Of a stretch of DNA of 64,000 nt, positions 12,311 to 48,087 are shown piece by piece (the stretch's first letter is position 1; each line of letters starts with the position of its first letter). The notes under the pieces were generated by a model. The model ran no database searches. It saw only the letters and a program-made list of their open reading frames with translations, and was not told where the DNA came from. A program made the translations under genes and the position numbers. This DNA comes from Terriglobales bacterium (lineage in GTDB: Bacteria; Acidobacteriota; Terriglobia; Terriglobales; SCQP01), in contig DATNFK010000009.1 in assembly GCA_035606395.1 (NCBI GenBank), positions 68,209 through 132,208 of the forward strand, given 5' to 3'.

Positions 12311-12353
12311 GAAGCGGCGGCCGCGCGGCGCTCGCCGCGCTTGGGCCCGCGCA
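12311..12353. repeat. REP-like element, copy E (core: hairpin GCGCGGC-gctc-GCCGCGC plus tail TTGGGCCCGCGC)
   Basis: It aligns by eye with the copies at 19341, 19435, 23991 and 47831. It lies in a convergent intergenic gap. Confidence 0.55.
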
Positions 12354-13130
12354 CTAAACCGGGACCGCGACCCGACGGCCAAAGAGGTGGCCGGCGGCAA
12401 TGCCGTTCACGGCCGGCTCAACGTCGCGGCCGCTCTCGGTATGGATGAGGCGATAGCCCAGCGGCTGCAGCAGCTCGGAGATTGCCTCGACGCGCTGCGC
12501 CTTCAGGGCGTGGTTGGCGCCGTGGATCTCGACCATCAAATCGGGACCATAGCGGGCCAGGGTGCCGCGGGCGCCGCGCAGCACGTCCAACTCGAAGCCT
12601 TCGACGTCAATTTTCACAAAATCCGGCGCCGGCAAATCGAGCGGAGCCACCAAATCATCCAGCCGCTCGACCTGGGCTCGGCCCACGCTGCGGCGAAATG
12701 GCGTCTGCGCATCGGCTGCCAGCGAGGCGGTGGTCGACATACCGGGAAGCGCAAACACCTCCCTCACTTCGCGCTCCGCGCCCAGGGCCAGCGGCAGTGC
12801 GCGCACGTTGATTATGTGGTTGAGCGCGAGATTCCGGGCCAGTTTGTCGAAGTTTCCAGGTGCCGGCTCGAATGCCACGACCGAACCTGTCGCCCCGACC
12901 TGACGCGAGAAAAACAGGGCATAGCTGCCGCGGTGGGCGCCAATGTCATAGACCACTTTTCCGGCCAGCGGCAGGGCGCACAGCAGCTTCTCTTCCGGGC
13001 TTTGCAGCAGCGGCAGCCGCAGCCATCCAGGCACCATCCAGTCGCAATTGACGAACCCGCTGGCCATGTCACGGCGAAAAAAACCGGGCCGGTAGCGGCC
13101 CAGCGGTCCCAGCCAGCGCCGTAACCTCAA
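12354..13130 (-). CDS. FkbM-family SAM-dependent methyltransferase
   Basis: Carries VVYDIGAHRGSYALFF, FEP and DFVKIDVEGFELDVLRGA. The TTG start overlaps the upstream gene's stop (TTGA). Confidence 0.75.
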   Translation of the reverse strand: MRLRRWLGPLGRYRPGFFRRDMASGFVNCDWMVPGWLRLPLLQSPEEKLLCALPLAGKVVYDIGAHRGSYALFFSRQVGATGSVVAFEPAPGNFDKLARNLALNHIINVRALPLALGAEREVREVFALPGMSTTASLAADAQTPFRRSVGRAQVERLDDLVAPLDLPAPDFVKIDVEGFELDVLRGARGTLARYGPDLMVEIHGANHALKAQRVEAISELLQPLGYRLIHTESGRDVEPAVNGIAAGHLFGRRVAVPV

Positions 13131-16053: not shown

Positions 16054-16081
16054 TGGGCGCGCGCCCGGTATATTCTTAAGC

Positions 16082-17604: not shown

Positions 17605-19176
17605 CAAGGTCACCGCTTTCGCGACTTCCGGATCCACTTGCATCAGTGTCTTGCGACCGTCGTTGAGGCCGTAGAGGGTCGAGATGACGCTGAATCGGAT
17701 CTGTTCCTTGAGCCAGGCGGAATTGGCGGCCACATCGGCGGGCTTGAGCACCACGTGCTGGCCAGCCAGGAAGGTGACGAAGTCGCGCACGGTCGAGTCG
17801 TCGGGCATCCAGGTTTGGGGCACGGTATCGCGCTTAGCCAGGTAGTCGTCGGTGAATTCGATGAACGCGGTGCGGTCCAGGATCATCTGCTGGAAGTCGT
17901 TCAAGTGCTCGGCCGGGAGCATGACGTCCGGAGTAATGCCGCCTCCGCCGTACACGGTGCGCCCGGTATCGGTCATCTTGACCTCGCGCTTGCCGGGCGG
18001 CGCCTGGTTCTGATCGTGCACGTAAAAATAATCGTAGAGCGAGAGGCCTTCGTACGGGCGCTGGATCAGTCGTCCGCTGGGGGTGTAGTAGTGGGCGGTG
18101 GTCAGCGCCAGTCCGGTGCCATCCTGCAGACGCATCACCGATTGCACCAAGCCTTTGCCGAAGGTGGTTTGGCCGACGATCAGGCCGCGGTCGTGGTCCT
18201 GCACCGCGCCGGAGACGATCTCGGCCGCGCTCGCGGTCATATTGTCGACCAGGATGACCAGCGGGAAATCGTTGCCGCCGTTGCCGCGGGTGGCGGTCAT
18301 CACCTGCTCGGGTGAATTGCGGCCGTGGTCGCTGACGATGACCTGGTCCTTCGCCAGGAACAAATCGGCGATGCCTTGCGCCTGCGTGAGCACGCCGCCC
18401 GGGTTTCCGCGCAGGTCGAGCACCACGCCTTTGATGGCGCCGTTGTCGAGGGCATGATTGAGAATCGCCGCCATCTCGGAGGTCGACGTATCGGTGAAGC
18501 CGGTGAGGTGGATGTAATAGACGCCGGGTTCGATCGTGTAGGTCGAGTCAATGCTGTTGTGCTGTACGTCGGCCCGCACCAGATTAAAATTCAGCAGGTT
18601 CTCATGGCCCACCCGCTGCACCGAAACTGTCACCGTGCTGCCCTTGGGTCCCTTCAGCATGGTCGCGACCTGATCGGTCGACAACCCGACGGTGGATTTT
18701 CCGTCCACGGCCATGATTAGATCCCAGGGACGAATACCGGCCTTGAAGGCGGGCGTGCCTTCGAACGGCTGCACTACCCGGCTCTGGTTATTGCGCGCGT
18801 CGACCGCGCCGATCAACATCCCGACCCCGGAGTAGCGCCCCTCCTGGTCTTCCATCATTTTCGCGAAACCCTTGGGATCCCAGAAATTCGAGTGAGGATC
18901 GAGTTGCCGCAGCATCCCCGGAATCGCGCCATTGTAAATCGCGGTGCTGGGGTTTACGGGCGCGGCATAGTTGGCTTCGACCAGGCTGTATACGCGGGCG
19001 AATTCGCGCAGATCGTTCTGAATTTCAGCTTCGCTGTTGTCGGCGCCGGTGCCGCTCGCTCCGACCGAGGCGGCGGCCACTGAAGTGGACTCGACCGATG
19101 GTCCAAACCGGGCACCGATCAACGCTCCCGCGCCCATAACCGCCACCACCGTCAGCAACGTCCGAAGCTTTTTCAT
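17536..19176 (-). CDS. carboxyl-terminal processing protease (peptidase S41, PDZ domain)
   Basis: The ATG at 19176 gives MKKLRTLLTVVAVMGAGALIGA. The product has a PDZ domain and an S41 core (DLRGNPGG, TASAAEI). The upstream 96 codons of the track ORF are translated REP repeats. Confidence 0.9.
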   Translation of the reverse strand: MKKLRTLLTVVAVMGAGALIGARFGPSVESTSVAAASVGASGTGADNSEAEIQNDLREFARVYSLVEANYAAPVNPSTAIYNGAIPGMLRQLDPHSNFWDPKGFAKMMEDQEGRYSGVGMLIGAVDARNNQSRVVQPFEGTPAFKAGIRPWDLIMAVDGKSTVGLSTDQVATMLKGPKGSTVTVSVQRVGHENLLNFNLVRADVQHNSIDSTYTIEPGVYYIHLTGFTDTSTSEMAAILNHALDNGAIKGVVLDLRGNPGGVLTQAQGIADLFLAKDQVIVSDHGRNSPEQVMTATRGNGGNDFPLVILVDNMTASAAEIVSGAVQDHDRGLIVGQTTFGKGLVQSVMRLQDGTGLALTTAHYYTPSGRLIQRPYEGLSLYDYFYVHDQNQAPPGKREVKMTDTGRTVYGGGGITPDVMLPAEHLNDFQQMILDRTAFIEFTDDYLAKRDTVPQTWMPDDSTVRDFVTFLAGQHVVLKPADVAANSAWLKEQIRFSVISTLYGLNDGRKTLMQVDPEVAKAVTLLPQAQALEAHARTVLAARQAAH

Positions 19177-19340
19177 GAGGGAAACCCTGGTGCGACCCGC
19201 CGCTCCACTTTTCTGAATTATATCGTATTCGCGTGCCCCCGCGCGGCTGCCGCCGCCCGACAGCTTCGTGCAATCCCGTAGCGCGACGGCGCGCAACGCC
19301 CGCGTGGGCCTTCGGTGTCTCCAAGCGGCGGATAACGCGA

Positions 19341-19517
19341 AGAGCCGGTTGGGGCGAAGGGGCCCCCAAGCCGGCACTGTGCGTAAGCGGGTGCCCGGCG
19401 GCAGCCGGGCGGGGCCCGCGCCAAGCAAGCGCGCAGAGCCGGTTTGGGGCGAAGGGGCCCCCAAACCGGCACTGCGCGCAAGCGGGTGCCCGGCGGCAGC
19501 CGGGCGGGGCCCGCGCC
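19341..19517. repeat. two tandem REP-like double-hairpin elements (copy A 19341-19422, copy B 19435-19517; 94-nt period)
   Basis: The two copies are near-identical. Hairpin 1 is GCCGGTTTGGGG..CCCCAAACCGGC and hairpin 2 is GCCCGGC-ggca-GCCGGGC, followed by the tail GGGGCCCGCGCC. Confidence 0.8.
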
Positions 19518-19533
19518 TATAATGGAGATTGGT

Positions 19534-19803
19534 ATGGAGCTGCTCTTCCTCGCCATGTTGGCGCTACTTGTGTTTGGACCCCGGCGCTTGCCCGAGATCG
19601 CCCGCACCGTGGCCAAAGTGATGGCCGAACTGCGTAAGGCCAGCAACGAGTTTCGCTACTCGCTCGAGGATGAAATTCGCAATCTGGAAATCCACGAGCA
19701 GCAACAGAAGCGTCTCGAGGCTCAGGCCGCCCTGGAGGCCAAGCCCACGCCGGCGGTCGAGGGCACGGTAGCGCGTATTCATGAGTCCAATGGCCCTGCT
19801 TGA
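19534..19803 (+). CDS. tatA: twin-arginine translocase subunit TatA/TatB family
   Basis: The product begins MELLFLAMLALLVFGPRRLPEIARTV. GGAG lies 7 nt upstream of the ATG at 19534. The track start at 19444 lies in REP copy B. Confidence 0.85.
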   Translation: MELLFLAMLALLVFGPRRLPEIARTVAKVMAELRKASNEFRYSLEDEIRNLEIHEQQQKRLEAQAALEAKPTPAVEGTVARIHESNGPA

Positions 19804-23982: not shown

Positions 23983-23990
23983 TTCTCGAG

Positions 23991-24070
23991 GCCGGATTGG
24001 GCTCAGGGTCCCCCTTCCTGCGCCGCGCCTAAGCGGGTCGCGCGGCGACAGCCGCGCCGCGGCCCGCGCC
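23991..24070. repeat. REP-like element, copy D (hairpin 2 GCGCGGC-gaca-GCCGCGC; hairpin 1 degenerate)
   Basis: CTAAGCGGGTCGCGCGGCGACAGCCGCGCCGCGGCCCGCGCC aligns with copy C. It overlaps the 3' end of the 24029..25561 ORF. Confidence 0.65.
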
Positions 24071-25561
24071 CGTCAATCTATACACGATCTGGATGCCGTG
24101 GCGCCAGTCTTCGTTAATGCCAATGCGCGTCCACTCGATCTCGGGCCCGAGCCAGGCGGTGACCGTCTCCGTGTGCGGGTGCCAGCGCAGCGCCGGGGCG
24201 ACCATCCACAATCGGGGCGGCAGCGCGCTCAGCTCGACCCCGGGAAAGTAGCCCAGGCGCTCGAAGTCGCCCGCGAGTTGATGGCGCCGGACTAGGAGCC
24301 AGTAATCAAGCGCTTGCAGCGGAAAGCCCAGATCCTCGTCCGCCTTCAATTCCACCACCGTGAGCCGGCCGTCATGGTCGACCAGTAGCAAGTCCATCAC
24401 GTCGCGCTCCTGCGGGCGGCACGCCGGCACCTGGCGATAGACCCAGCGCCGGTCGATAGTGGCCGCCAGTACCGTGGGGTCGCTGTGGATGAGGTGCTCC
24501 ATCCACGCTTCGGGCTGAATGCGGAACAGCCAGTCGCCGCGCCTGCCGCCGGCCACGCGCTGCGCGGCCAACTCGGCGAGCAACGCCAGAAATTGCGGCC
24601 GGGTTGACTCCAACAGCGGCGTTTGCTCGCGTCCGTAGCCAAAACTGTGGCGGGCGATCAGGCCCTCGGCGGGGCTCGTCTCGCGCGCGATCTCGAGTCC
24701 GTAGACGCGGTACAGGCGGCGTCCGTCGAGGCCGCGTTCCACCGTCGCCTGGGGACAGCGTTCGCGAATTTCGCGGAGTAGTTCGTCCTCAGCCTCGGCG
24801 GCGGGAGCCGGCCACGGTGCCGGCGCCCGCCGCAAGCGGGCCTCGAGGTTGCCCTTGTTCTCGCCCCCCCATTCGGCGCGGTTGAGTTGCCCGGCCGAAC
24901 GATCCAGCCAGAAACACTCGATGGCCGGCGCGTCGCCGGGCGGCGCCAGCCCCGCGCGCTGCTGCGCCACCAAACGCTCGGCGCCGGGCGGCAGCACCAG
25001 GCGCAGCTCGGCCACATGGCCGCGCGGCCAGCGCTGGCGCGCCTGCTCGGCCAGCACCAGCGCTTGCGCCAGGATGCCGGCCGCCGTTCCCTCGTCGATC
25101 GCTACGCAGACGACGAGCGCGTGTTGTTTGCGCAGCACCAGGCGCAGCCAGGGCGAAGCCGCCTGCGGGGTGCGCGGCATGGGGACGAGTTGCCAGCCCG
25201 GCCAATCGCGCCCGATGGCCGCAAGCAGCGCCTGGCGGAACTCGGCCCGGGCCCCGCTGGAGGGGTCGCCCGCCGCGCACAGAACCAGGGCCTGAGGCTG
25301 GCGCTGGCCCATGCGCAAACACTCGAGCCGCAGGCGGTTGCCGCTTTGGGCTTTCCAGCCCACAATGCGGCGCACGAGATTGGCGTGGGGCGACCAGAAG
25401 TGGCAGACCAGTTGGGCGCCGAGGGTGATCGAGTATCCCGAGGTCTCCGCCTCCAGGCGTGCCACGCGCGCGCCCGCTTCCCACAGCTCAACCGCCGGCT
25501 GGCTGCCGAGGAAGGCGCGCACCGCCGCCGCCGCCGCGGAGGCATCAAATTCGGCAGGCAT
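24029..25561 (-). CDS. uncharacterised protein with C-terminal NucS/RecB-type PD-(D/E)xK nuclease core and ~380-aa unassigned N-terminal region
   Basis: 510 aa. The motif DLLLVDHDGRLTVVELK-x9-QALDY (D-x13-ExK then Q-x3-Y) lies at about 24300-24394. I recognised no other family signature. Confidence 0.6.
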   Translation of the reverse strand: MPAEFDASAAAAAVRAFLGSQPAVELWEAGARVARLEAETSGYSITLGAQLVCHFWSPHANLVRRIVGWKAQSGNRLRLECLRMGQRQPQALVLCAAGDPSSGARAEFRQALLAAIGRDWPGWQLVPMPRTPQAASPWLRLVLRKQHALVVCVAIDEGTAAGILAQALVLAEQARQRWPRGHVAELRLVLPPGAERLVAQQRAGLAPPGDAPAIECFWLDRSAGQLNRAEWGGENKGNLEARLRRAPAPWPAPAAEAEDELLREIRERCPQATVERGLDGRRLYRVYGLEIARETSPAEGLIARHSFGYGREQTPLLESTRPQFLALLAELAAQRVAGGRRGDWLFRIQPEAWMEHLIHSDPTVLAATIDRRWVYRQVPACRPQERDVMDLLLVDHDGRLTVVELKADEDLGFPLQALDYWLLVRRHQLAGDFERLGYFPGVELSALPPRLWMVAPALRWHPHTETVTAWLGPEIEWTRIGINEDWRHGIQIVYRLTGAGRGAAVAARPA

Positions 25562-46311: not shown

Positions 46312-46385
<74 letters not shown>

Positions 46386-47784: not shown

Positions 47785-47830
47785 CTGCAACCGATTAAAG
47801 TTTGAATCACTAGTTTCAATCCGACCCGTA

Positions 47831-47904
47831 CGCCGGGGTGGGGTCCCCACCCCGGCGTTGCGCCTAAGCGGGGCGCGCGGCGGTAGCCGCGCGGGGCCCG
47901 CGCC
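47831..47904. repeat. REP-like element, copy C (hairpin 1 CGCCGGGGTGGGG-t-CCCCACCCCGGCG; hairpin 2 GCGCGGC-ggta-GCCGCGC)
   Basis: Read directly from the sequence. It has the same layout and conserved linker/tail as copies A and B. Confidence 0.8.
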
Positions 47905-48087
47905 GATCATTGATCCCCAAGCCTGGGTCGCCGCCAGCCTTCCGGCGCCGTAGCCACAACAATGATGAAAAGCGCAGCTATGGCGCCGCCGTCATAAATG
48001 TATAAAATATATTGCATTTTCAAAGTCGCCTTGCTCTACTCTGTCTGGCAGGCAATCGAACTACGATTGCAACTTCGGGCGCTTTAT

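What the first reader, a model, noticed from the sequence alone, without database searches (positions are those of the whole stretch)
19225..19523. Family of ~80-nt double-hairpin REP/BIME-like elements with compensatory stem substitutions (5-6 copies in 64 kb)
There are five clear copies. A (19341-19422) and B (19435-19517) are tandem with a 94-nt period, between the S41 protease gene and tatA. C is at 47831-47904, D at 23991-24070, and the core of E at 12311-12353. A possible degenerate inverted fragment lies near 19233-19262. All share one layout: hairpin 1, a conserved linker (GCGC.TAAGCGGG), hairpin 2 (7 bp plus a 4-nt loop), and a conserved tail GGGGCCCGCGCC. Hairpin 2 arms are GCCCGGC/GCCGGGC in A and B but GCGCGGC/GCCGCGC in C, D and E. 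That is a paired C:G to G:C swap, and the loops vary freely (GGCA, GGTA, GACA, GCTC). Hairpin 1 arms are entirely different in B (GCCGGTTTGGGG/CCCCAAACCGGC) and C (CGCCGGGGTGGGG/CCCCACCCCGGCG), yet both are perfectly self-complementary. The secondary structure is therefore conserved rather than the sequence. This fits a structured REP/MITE-like element or a small RNA/terminator module. Three copies sit just past gene 3' ends (C, D, E). The tandem pair sits in a divergent promoter region and ends directly on a TATAAT hexamer 11 nt before the tatA ATG. When translated, the copies create spurious N- or C-terminal ORF extensions (GAGPARLPPGTRL-type peptides).
Basis: seen in the sequence. Interest (0 to 1): 0.62.

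Follow-up and report, generated by a model that had tools for sequence, protein, structure and literature searches.

The report
Mobile hairpin repeats between acidobacterial genes
The finding is real: it is a ~95-base, very GC-rich double-hairpin repeat that has spread between the genes of one group of uncultured soil Acidobacteria (Terriglobales) and comes and goes between close relatives, so it behaves like the selfish REP/BOX-type repeats known from other bacteria rather than like a regulator of the neighbouring genes.

Summary
The repeat family is real. A covariance model finds four solid copies in the window: A 19336-19429, B 19430-19517, C 47827-47911 and D 23988-24077. There are also two decayed copies (E, F) and a solo end fragment.

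The same family occurs only in uncultured Terriglobales: about 66 anchored copies in 7 MAGs, and more than 119 metagenome contigs. Tandem arrays reach at least 7 units with a 93-98 nt period. No copy was found in viral contigs or plasmids, and no Rfam family matches.

Both hairpins keep pairing through compensatory changes. Of all pair cells, 95% are paired, and 23 of 31 pairs show changes on both sides.

Copies lie in either orientation relative to flanking genes. They are present or absent at orthologous sites in close relatives. One clean filled/empty pair shows a 270-nt element inserted precisely after a stop codon, with no target duplication.

The TATAAT next to copy B is native DNA, not part of the element. 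Copy D rewrites the C-terminus of a conserved protein.

Best reading: a new, lineage-specific, non-autonomous mobile mosaic repeat of the REP/BIME/BOX kind. It is not a terminator, riboswitch or sRNA. The mobilising enzyme was not found; a HUH-Y1 transposase is only an inference.

The parts
19336..19429 (+). Copy A: a full unit. It has hairpin 1 (basal ACGCG/TGCGT plus GCCGGTTGGGG/CCCCAAGCCGGC), TAA, hairpin 2 (outer GCGGG/CCCGC, inner GCCCGGC-GGCA-GCCGGGC), the tail GGGGCCCGCGCC and AAGCAAG.
   Evidence: CM 48.7 bits, E 2e-6. 96% identical to B. Fold.
19430..19517 (+). Copy B: a full unit in tandem with A (95-nt period). It ends at GCGCC, directly before the native TATAATGG.
   Evidence: CM 59.3 bits, E 3e-8. 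The orthologous copy in L087 3642-3735 has an identical hairpin 2 and tail but a hairpin 1 with compensatory differences.
19228..19300 (-). Copy F: a decayed copy in inverted orientation, next to the S41 protease start. It retains a hairpin-2-like core and the tail GGGGGCACGCGAA.
   Evidence: Inverted repeats I8/I9, 30 nt, 80% complementary to A and B. Alignment. Not recovered by the CM.
47827..47911 (+). Copy C: a full unit with a short-loop hairpin 1 (CGCCGGGGTGGGG/CCCCACCCCGGCG) and the GCGCGGC/GCCGCGC version of hairpin 2. It lies 42 nt after a glyoxalase-family gene.
   Evidence: CM 44.6 bits, E 9e-6. Pfam.
23988..24077 (+). Copy D: hairpin 1 is decayed; the linker, hairpin 2 and tail are intact (24019-24077). 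It lies 6 nt after the aroB stop. Its antisense strand encodes the last 15 codons and the stop (CTA of CTAAGCGGG, 24029-24031) of the convergent conserved orf510.
   Evidence: CM 36.2 bits, E 2e-4. Absent from the orthologous aroB/orf509 junction in L087. C-termini compared.
12312..12353 (+). Copy E: a truncated copy with hairpin 2 (GCGCGGC-GCTC-GCCGCGC) and the tail TTGGGCCCGCGCA only. The stop codon of the convergent FkbM methyltransferase gene (12354-12356) abuts it.
   Evidence: CM local hit 12.6 bits, E=2, weak. Alignment. Pattern hit. Pfam.
16054..16075 (-). Solo end fragment (CGGGCGCGCGCC-CATCAAT). It sits where the relative L087 carries a full copy (L087 162-252, minus strand), and it contains the TGA stop of the upstream gene.

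Best explanation
These are copies of a lineage-specific, non-autonomous mobile repeat of uncultured Terriglobales (Acidobacteriota).

**Anatomy.** The basic unit is about 95 nt. It consists of a long variable hairpin 1, an unpaired (T/C)AA, and hairpin 2 (a 7-8 bp stem inside a conserved GCGGG/CCCGC outer stem with internal loops). It ends with a conserved tail GGGGCCCGCGCC followed by an A/T-containing box (AAGCAAT, TATCAAT and similar). In several genomes a leader of about 110-170 nt made of further hairpins precedes one to at least seven tandem units, an A-Bn-type mosaic.

**Shown.**
- The element sits in intergenic DNA in either orientation.
- It is inserted or excised as a discrete block, without target-site duplication or long terminal inverted repeats.
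- It differs in presence and copy number between close relatives.
- It keeps its hairpins through compensatory changes.

**Inferred.**
- The hairpins are kept because folding of one strand, most plausibly single-stranded DNA, is what a trans-acting enzyme recognises. I judge a HUH-Y1 transposase of the RAYT/TIRYT/class-3 kind to be that enzyme at about 0.35 likelihood.
- Arrays grow and shrink by slippage or unequal recombination between the near-identical units and end motifs.

**Local side effects in this window.**
- The sequence upstream of tatA is replaced by A/B/F.
- D gives the conserved orf510 protein a new 15-residue C-terminal tail and its stop codon.
- C, D and E place very stable GC-rich hairpins just after genes, where they may protect or end transcripts. 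This last point is untested.
For: **Family membership and specificity.**
- A CM built from other genomes hits A-D at E 3e-8 to 2e-4 and nothing else in the window.
- It gives 92 hits at E<0.01 in the acidobacterial loci and none in the 20 loci from other phyla that match the anchor by chance.

**Distribution.**
- Seven Terriglobales/Acidobacteria MAGs carry 1 to about 20 anchored copies each.
- None were found in viral contigs or plasmids.
- No Rfam match, even at E<=1.

**Structure.**
- 95.3% of pair cells are standard pairs, against 84.1% in shuffles (0 of 500 reach the observed value) and 38-50% when partners are slid.
- 23 of 31 pairs show changes on both sides, in 198 cells.
- With the hairpin left unconstrained by the search pattern, 54 of 66 copies have a perfect 7-8 bp stem, against 0 of 20 chance matches. 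There are at least four stem versions: GCGCGGC, GCCCCGCC, GCCCGGC and GCGGGGC.
- The orthologous copies B (window) and L087 3642-3735 differ by two full compensatory pairs in hairpin 1.

**Mobility and turnover.**
- L061 3496-3765 is a 270-nt element lying between gtcTAG and GCCCGCCACC. The orthologous L012 site reads gtcTAG|GCCCGCCACC, with flanks 96-97% identical, no duplication and no microhomology.
- L087 and L090 are 97-98% identical in their flanks, yet the S41-tatA spacer is 304 nt with three copies in one and 105 nt with none in the other.
- D is absent from L087.
- An L087 copy upstream of ruvB is reduced to a solo end in the window.
- Array copy number differs between L122 and L129 at an orthologous site.

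**Orientation.** It is random relative to genes: 75:64 upstream and 77:73 downstream, over 199 events.

**Precedent.** Acidobacteria carry Y1 transposases associated with high-copy hairpin repeats (PMC6006769; PMC3733652).
Against: **No mobilising gene was found.**
- E. coli RayT, six acidobacterial TIRYT sequences and class-3 motif searches found nothing in about 1.6 Mb of element-bearing DNA.
- No transposase recurs next to copies.
- TIRYT genes sampled elsewhere have no copy within 2.5 kb.
- However, only about 185 element-bearing stretches were sampled, against an estimated few hundred copies per genome, and a transposase locus could be single-copy. The absence is therefore weak evidence.

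**Missing hallmarks of HUH-Y1 elements.**
- There is no conserved GT[AG]G or CnGA foot.
- No conserved target motif could be defined.
- There is no significant link between orientation and local GC skew (38:50).

**Limits of the insertion evidence.**
- Only one perfectly clean filled/empty pair was found. The other polymorphic sites are rearranged or too diverged to place the boundaries.

**Limits of the covariation evidence.**
- It was counted on a model-fitted alignment of related repeat copies. Few independent events may underlie many cells.
- Arm-to-arm templated repair in DNA palindromes can create 'compensatory' pairs without selection.

**Untested.** Nothing here tests transcription.
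Confidence: 0.8

Rival explanations
1. The elements are host cis-acting RNA modules kept at each site by selection. They would act as factor-independent terminators or 3'-end stabilisers after genes (C, D, E), and as a 5'-UTR regulator of tatA (A/B).
For: - C, D and E lie 6-42 nt after same-strand genes.
- The hairpins are very stable (-48 to -59 kcal/mol), and pairing is conserved by covariation.
- In 34 of 73 convergent cases, the neighbouring gene's stop lies 2-16 nt from the element end.
- REPs in E. coli are known to stabilise upstream mRNA (established knowledge).
Against: - Orientation relative to the upstream gene is 75 same to 64 opposite, and to the downstream gene 77:73.
- There is no U-tract and no terminator-like site.
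- Copies are absent from the same junctions in close relatives.
- Copy number varies from 0 to at least 7 at a site.
- Truncated and solo remnants are common.
- An incidental effect on transcripts is not excluded.
Confidence: 0.1
2. They are classical REPs, or REPIN-type doublets, mobilised by a RAYT encoded elsewhere in the genome.
For: - They are high-copy, extragenic palindromic units with conserved unpaired flanks.
- Insertion leaves no TSD.
- Y1 transposases are widespread in Acidobacteria (PMC3733652; PMC6006769).
Against: - There is no GT[AG]G tetranucleotide at either end of either hairpin (alignments).
- Units are arranged head-to-tail, not as inverted doublets.
- No RAYT/TIRYT was found in 1.6 Mb around copies.
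- The common acidobacterial TIRYT group also occurs in genera that lack the element (Acidobacterium, Terriglobus) and has no copy nearby.
Confidence: 0.2
3. They are MITEs: internally deleted derivatives of a conventional DDE insertion sequence, moved by its transposase through terminal inverted repeats.
For: - The size (95-270 nt), intergenic location and discrete insertion fit.
- The end motif GGGGSCCGCGCC occurs at both ends of the long form and is quasi-palindromic.
Against: - The clean filled/empty pair shows no target-site duplication.
- The two ends are direct rather than inverted repeats of a 12-nt motif, with only about 8 of 11 matches when read as a TIR (my comparison of the sequences).
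- No transposase gene of any kind recurs near copies.
Confidence: 0.05
4. They are a multi-copy family of small RNA genes.
For: The two-hairpin structure is conserved, and orientation is independent of neighbouring genes, as expected for stand-alone genes.
Against: - There is no conserved promoter-like sequence upstream and no terminator.
- Estimated copies are about 1 per 11-20 kb.
- The family includes tandem arrays, truncated copies and copies overlapping coding ends.
- There is no Rfam match.
Confidence: 0.03

Closest known systems
REP / BIME elements of Enterobacteria and Pseudomonas (REPINs, mobilised by RAYT Y1 transposases)
   Same: - High-copy, GC-rich, extragenic hairpin-forming units with conserved unpaired flanks.
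- Often right after stop codons.
- Several stem subfamilies within one genome.
- Clustered into mosaics.
- No target duplication.
- Present or absent between close relatives.
   Different: - No GT[AG]G foot.
- The unit is about 95 nt with two different hairpins, rather than a 20-40 nt palindrome.
- Units are arranged head-to-tail in arrays rather than as inverted doublets.
- No RAYT found nearby.
BOX elements of Streptococcus pneumoniae (boxA-boxB(n)-boxC)
   Same: - Modular architecture in which a terminal module occurs once and an internal hairpin-forming module is tandemly repeated a variable number of times. Here that is a leader plus 1 to at least 7 units.
- Intergenic location.
- Mobilising enzyme unknown.
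   Different: - A different phylum and base composition.
- I did not test for sequence relationship; I know of none.
- Here a precise insertion without TSD is documented.
Hairpin repeats associated with class-3 TnpA(Y1) and TIRYT genes in Acidobacteria (about 600 copies in Solibacter usitatus, PMC6006769; Koribacter TIR family, PMC3733652)
   Same: - The same phylum.
- High-copy 'atypical' secondary structures.
- REPtron-like logic is proposed for them.
   Different: - The published 5' foot CnGA and the motif GGGGWSAS are not seen in this element.
- No Y1 gene was found next to any copy.
IS200/IS605-derived PATEs
   Same: - Subterminal hairpins.
- No TIR and no TSD.
- Insertion as a precise block.
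   Different: - No conserved 4-5 nt target next to one end could be defined.
- No orientation bias with local GC skew.
Bacterial MITEs (Correia/NEMIS, ERIC, RUP)
   Same: - Size.
- Intergenic spread.
- Ability to alter gene ends and transcripts.
   Different: MITEs have TIRs and TSDs; neither is seen here.

Membership tests
REP/REPIN (RAYT-associated) | Conserved GT[AG]G tetranucleotide at the 5' foot of the palindrome | tested here: not met
   Alignments of 69 and 92 copies. The unpaired flanks are (T/C)AA-GCGGG-AC and CTGGGG...GCGCC-AAGCAAT. There is no GTAG/GTGG on either strand at a hairpin foot.
REP/REPIN (RAYT-associated) | High copy number, mostly extragenic | tested here: met
   There are 4-6 copies in 64 kb, 92 CM hits in the MAG loci and more than 119 metagenome contigs. 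About 85% lie outside my gene calls.
REP/REPIN (RAYT-associated) | A RAYT (Y1 HUH transposase) gene flanked by the repeats | tested here: inconclusive
   phmmer with E. coli RayT and six acidobacterial TIRYTs against six-frame translations of about 1.6 Mb found no hit. Whole genomes could not be scanned.
REP/REPIN (RAYT-associated) | Units organised as inverted doublets | tested here: not met
   Arrays are head-to-tail with a 93-98 nt period. Only occasional inverted neighbours occur.
CGTC-tagged REPs (Di Nocera 2013) | CGTC tag, an 8-9 bp stem starting with A-T pairs, a 4-5 nt loop and a CCA tail | tested here: not met
   The GAC before hairpin 2 gives CGTC on the other strand in many MAG copies, but not in window copies (GGGT, GGGGC, GGGTC). 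Stems are pure G/C, and there is no CCA tail.
MITE | Terminal inverted repeats and target-site duplication | tested here: not met
   The filled/empty pair L061/L012 reads TAG|element|GCCCGCC against TAG|GCCCGCC, with no duplication. The end motifs are direct repeats.
IS200/IS605-type (HUH-Y1) non-autonomous element | No TIR or TSD, with subterminal hairpins | tested here: met
IS200/IS605-type (HUH-Y1) non-autonomous element | Insertion next to a fixed 4-5 nt target; strand bias linked to replication | tested here: inconclusive
   Left flanks are not conserved. Right flanks often begin with G or GG. Orientation against local GC skew is 38:50, not significant.
Class-3 TnpAY1-associated hairpins (Quentin 2018) | 5' foot CnGA and a flanking class-3 gene (NHVH ... 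YVxxEQ) | tested here: not met
   There is no CnGA at the hairpin feet (alignments). The motif search was empty. The regex used on the metagenome loci was narrow; the phmmer searches cover that gap only for the RayT/TIRYT classes.
Intrinsic terminator | GC-rich hairpin followed by a U-tract, on the sense strand after genes | tested here: not met
   No terminator-like site at 19000-19700. The tail is GGGGCCCGCGCCAAGCAAT. Orientation is random.
Any Rfam family | Match to a curated covariance model | tested here: not met
   At the gathering threshold the window yields only a tRNA. At E<=1, three loci with full copies yield nothing at the elements.
BOX-like modular repeat | A terminal module present once plus an internal module repeated a variable number of times | tested here: met
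   L169, L139 and L129 show the leader once, then 3-7 units. The window copies are units without a leader. This is a resemblance of architecture only.

The most novel reading that the evidence does not exclude
The element is the non-autonomous partner of a mobilisation system not yet described. It is a TSD-less, TIR-less 'leader + n hairpin units' element whose spread depends on an enzyme other than the known RAYT/TIRYT/IS200 transposases, or on a new class of them. It would insert preferentially at the very ends of genes, right at stop codons, in uncultured Terriglobales. The wobble asymmetry (99 G-U against 50 A-C) combined with random orientation relative to genes would mean that one DNA strand, not the mRNA, is the folded substrate.
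Probability: 0.15. Interest if true: 0.6.

Novelty: new member of a known kind. Interest (0 to 1): 0.35.

Why it matters
**Annotation.** In these MAGs the repeats create false N- and C-terminal ORF extensions. One example is the 119-aa TTG form of TatA. They can also genuinely change protein ends, as with the orf510 tail, and they are likely break points for short-read assemblies.

**Biology.** They add a well-resolved repeat family, with clean insertion boundaries and rich covariation, from a phylum where such elements are barely described. They also offer a concrete bait for finding the enzyme that moves TSD-less hairpin repeats. The mobilising enzyme is still unknown for BOX, ERIC-like and CGTC-type repeats as well.

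**Strain typing.** Copy-number variation at fixed sites (0 to at least 7 units) could serve as a strain marker for uncultured soil Terriglobales.

It is not a new principle.

Tried and rejected
1. **Fold energy as evidence.** Z-scores of -1 to -2.8 are weak against this GC-rich background, so I relied on covariation instead.
2. **RNAalifold on a MAFFT alignment.** It failed because hairpin-1 loops were out of register. I replaced it with a hand-specified structure and a CM re-alignment.
3. **Tail motif GGGGCCCGCGCC as a dispersed stand-alone repeat.** At up to 2 mismatches it is no more frequent than chance in the window (52 found, 53 expected). Only the 16054-16075 solo, which also carries the CATCAAT box, is credible.
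4. **Leader modules in the window.** None were found beyond chance.
5. **Search for a Y1 transposase.**
   - Regexes.
   - phmmer with E. coli RayT.
   - phmmer with acidobacterial TIRYTs rebuilt from a paper's supplement.
   - Genes lying between inverted copies.
   - Clustering of all neighbouring proteins.
   - Flanks of TIRYT homologues.
   All were negative.
6. **Replication-strand bias from local GC skew.** Not significant.
7. **The window's own genome.** It was not found: exact look-ups of TatA and TatC failed, and no metagenome locus is syntenic.
8. **Viral contigs and plasmids.** No copies.
9. **My home-made gene caller.** It mis-called the aroB region, which Pfam corrected. The orientation statistics are therefore approximate, although such errors should be orientation-neutral.
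10. **Target-site motif.** The three 'empty' sites in relatives of the window were too diverged or rearranged to define one.
Full report

Yes. The sequence at 19225-19523 contains two head-to-tail units. They share 74 nt at 96% identity, with a start-to-start spacing of 95 nt. Related units lie at 47.8 kb and 24.0 kb and are 80% identical to each other over 59 nt. A core-only copy lies at 12.3 kb, and a decayed inverted copy lies next to the tandem pair.

I built a covariance model from 20 copies taken from other genomes, not from the window. Run on the whole window without filters, it gave these scores:

| Copy | Bits | E-value |
|---|---|---|
| B | 59.3 | 3e-8 |
| A | 48.7 | 2e-6 |
| C | 44.6 | 9e-6 |
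| D | 36.2 | 2e-4 |
| E | 12.6 | 2 |

F is not reported and nothing else stands out. So there are four solid copies and two degenerate ones.

Fold energies alone are not impressive against the GC-rich background (z -1.1 to -2.8). The window is 60-69% GC, whereas the elements are 77-82% GC.

**2. Anatomy**

The GCGCG of the 'linker' pairs with CGCG upstream, giving up to 19 bp around a 9-11 nt loop that itself contains GGGG...CCCC.
- After an unpaired (T/C)AA comes hairpin 2. It has an outer GCGGG/CCCGC stem, small internal loops, and an inner 7-8 bp stem with a 3-4 nt loop.
- The tail GGGGCCCGCGCC follows, then an A/T-containing box such as AAGCAAT, TATCAAT or CATCAAT.

**3. Gene context in the window (Pfam)**

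- A, B and F lie between an S41 protease gene (minus strand) and tatA-tatC.
- C lies 42 nt after a glyoxalase-family gene.
- D lies 6 nt after aroB and is convergent with a conserved 510-aa ORF.
- E lies after a carboxyltransferase gene and abuts the stop of a convergent FkbM methyltransferase gene.

**4. Where else does it occur?**

*Genome scan.* I searched GTDB representative genomes with a pattern anchored only on the linker and tail, leaving both hairpins free. It returned 86 stretches. About 66 come from seven Acidobacteria/Terriglobales MAGs and carry the full element. The other 20, from actinobacteria, proteobacteria and others, are chance matches without hairpins.

*Model search of those loci.* The model found 92 copies at E<0.01 in the acidobacterial loci and none in the chance loci.

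These include tandem arrays of 3 to at least 7 nearly identical units with a 93-98 nt period.

*Leader.* In many copies, a leader of further hairpins (about 110-170 nt, starting CGCGGGGGCCGCGCC) precedes the unit or the array, and it occurs only once. The architecture is therefore leader + unit × n. The window copies are units without a leader.

*Negative searches.* No copy was found in viral contigs or plasmids. No Rfam family matches, even at E<=1.

*Host.* TatC homologues place the window in uncultured Terriglobales. Its own genome is not in the collections.

**5. Is the structure conserved beyond sequence?**

On the 92-copy alignment:

| Measure | Observed | Control |
|---|---|---|
| Pair cells that are standard pairs | 95.3% | 84.1% in shuffles (0 of 500 reach the observed value); 38-50% when partners are slid |
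| Pairs with changes on both sides | 23 of 31 (198 cells) | not given |

That alignment was fitted to the model. As an independent check, I used the anchor-only matches, in which the hairpin was not part of the search. A perfect 7-8 bp stem lies between the anchors in 54 of 66 family copies and in 0 of 20 chance matches. The stem versions are:

| Stem (5' arm) | Copies |
|---|---|
| GCGCGGC | 26 |
| GCCCCGCC | 21 |
| GCCCGGC | 4 |
| GCGGGGC | 1 |

The orthologous copies next to tatA in the window and in L087 have an identical hairpin 2 and tail. Their hairpin 1 differs at seven positions, including C-G to G-C and T-A to C-G swaps.

Caveats:
- Copies are related, so few independent events may underlie many cells.
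- In DNA palindromes, arm-to-arm templated repair can produce paired changes without selection (established knowledge).
- G-U type pairs outnumber A-C type mismatches 99 to 50. This is a weak hint that the strand shown is the one that folds.

**6. Regulator or mobile repeat?**

Several results point to a mobile repeat.

*(a) Orientation.* Over 199 independent events (arrays collapsed), the upstream gene is on the same strand 75 times and on the opposite strand 64 times. For the downstream gene the split is 77:73. My gene caller is imperfect, as one search showed for aroB, but its errors should not favour an orientation.

*(b) Turnover at orthologous sites.*
- L087 and L090 encode the same TatC protein and are 97-98% identical in the flanks. 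In one, the S41-tatA spacer is 304 nt with three copies. In the other, it is 105 nt of unrelated sequence with none.
- The window is 83% identical to L087 and has F+A+B at that spacer.
- D is absent from the aroB/orf509 junction of L087, where the spacer is 18 nt.
- L087 has a copy upstream of ruvB where the window keeps only a 22-nt solo end, 16054-16075.
- Array length differs between L122 and L129.

*(c) A clean filled/empty pair.* L061 3496-3765 (270 nt, from TCGCGGGGGCC to GCGCCAAGCAAT) lies between gtcTAG and GCCCGCCACC. In L012 the two flanks are contiguous. There is no duplication and no microhomology, and the flanks are 96-97% identical.

*(d) Other points.*
- No sigma-70-like promoter and no terminator-like site is predicted around A/B.
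- The TATAATGG that B abuts is present at the element-free site, so it is native. It is followed directly by GGAG, which looks like the tatA ribosome-binding site.

**7. Side effects seen in the window**

- The conserved part of orf510 ends at ...VYR in both the window and L087. The window then continues with 15 residues (LTGAGRGAAVAARPA) read from the antisense of D and stops at the CTA of CTAAGCGGG. L087 has six different residues.
- More generally, 34 of 73 convergent neighbours end 2-16 nt beyond GCGCC. Their stop often lies inside the TCAAT/TTAAT box. So the elements sit right at gene ends and can supply stop codons.

**8. How is it moved?**

This is unresolved. The features shown are precise block insertion, no TSD, no long TIR, subterminal hairpins and a conserved single-stranded end. 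Among known mechanisms these fit single-strand HUH-Y1 transposition best (IS200/IS605, REP/RAYT).

Acidobacteria are known to carry Y1 genes linked to high-copy hairpins:
- class 3, with about 600 structures in Solibacter usitatus (PMC6006769);
- TIRYTs (PMC3733652).

Against that:
- There is no GT[AG]G or CnGA foot.
- No fixed target motif could be defined.
- There is no skew-linked orientation bias.
- No Y1 homologue appears in about 1.6 Mb around copies.
- No transposase recurs nearby.
- The common acidobacterial TIRYT group is present in genera without the element and has no copy near it.

I therefore rate the HUH-Y1 link at about 0.35 and mark it as inference. Array expansion and solo ends are readily explained by slippage or recombination between near-identical units and between the direct end motifs (inference). 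Supporting examples are the 10-nt loop triplication in L056 and the 19-nt tail repeats in L039.

**9. Comparison with known families**

It behaves like REP/BIME and BOX elements. It fails the membership tests for RAYT-type REPs, CGTC REPs, MITEs, class-3-associated hairpins, intrinsic terminators and all Rfam families (see the membership table). I found no description of this family in the searchable literature. That is not proof that none exists.

**10. Verdict**

The element is a new, lineage-specific member of the known kind 'intergenic hairpin/mosaic repeats'. Its practical value is for annotating and typing uncultured Terriglobales, and its mobilising enzyme remains an open, testable question. 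Interest is moderate to low.

Noticed in passing
window 24029-24077 (minus strand): The conserved 510-aa ORF (49% identical homologue in L024; orthologue in L087) takes its last 15 codons and its stop codon from the antisense of element D. The relative without D has a different 6-residue tail.
   Followed up: yes
window 16054-16075: A solo 'tail + CATCAAT' fragment on the minus strand contains the TGA stop of the upstream gene. The relative L087 has a full element at the same place (162-252). This looks like a deletion remnant or a preferred landing site.
   Followed up: partly
window 19178-19533 versus L087 3382-3744 and L090 609-772: The whole S41-tatA spacer is hypervariable. Genomes 97-98% identical in their flanks share no alignable spacer sequence except the TATAAT-like boxes at its two edges.
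   Followed up: partly
held loci, 3' side of elements: In 34 of 73 cases with a convergent neighbour, that gene's stop codon lies 2-16 nt beyond ...GCGCC, often inside the TCAAT/TTAAT box. This suggests insertion exactly at gene ends, or selection for it.
   Followed up: partly
L056 4742-4847; L039 620-680: There are micro-expansions inside elements. The 10-nt loop motif GGGCTGGGGC is present three times in L056. A 19-nt 'tail + flank' unit (GCCCGCGCCAATAAACGCA) is repeated three times after an element in L039.
   Followed up: no
window 46312-46385 (minus strand): A tRNA gene (75 bits). It is the only Rfam match in the window.
   Followed up: no
window 19444-19803: The longest ORF over tatA starts at a TTG inside copy B (119 aa). 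The Pfam-supported TatA starts at ATG 19534 (89 aa). Public gene calls in relatives vary between 89, 93 and 97 aa. This is an annotation artefact caused by the stop-free GC-rich repeat.
   Followed up: partly
L217-L226 (about 1285-2500 in L218): A widely conserved acidobacterial Y1 (TIRYT-type) transposase gene sits at one fixed, syntenic locus across many samples. About 1.2 kb without called genes lies upstream of it. It has no copy of this element.
   Followed up: no
L110 and 17 other loci: The protein family that recurs most often in element-bearing loci looks like the large FtsX/MacB-type 'duplicated orphan permeases' typical of Acidobacteria. This is probably just a large paralogous family, not an association.
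   Followed up: no
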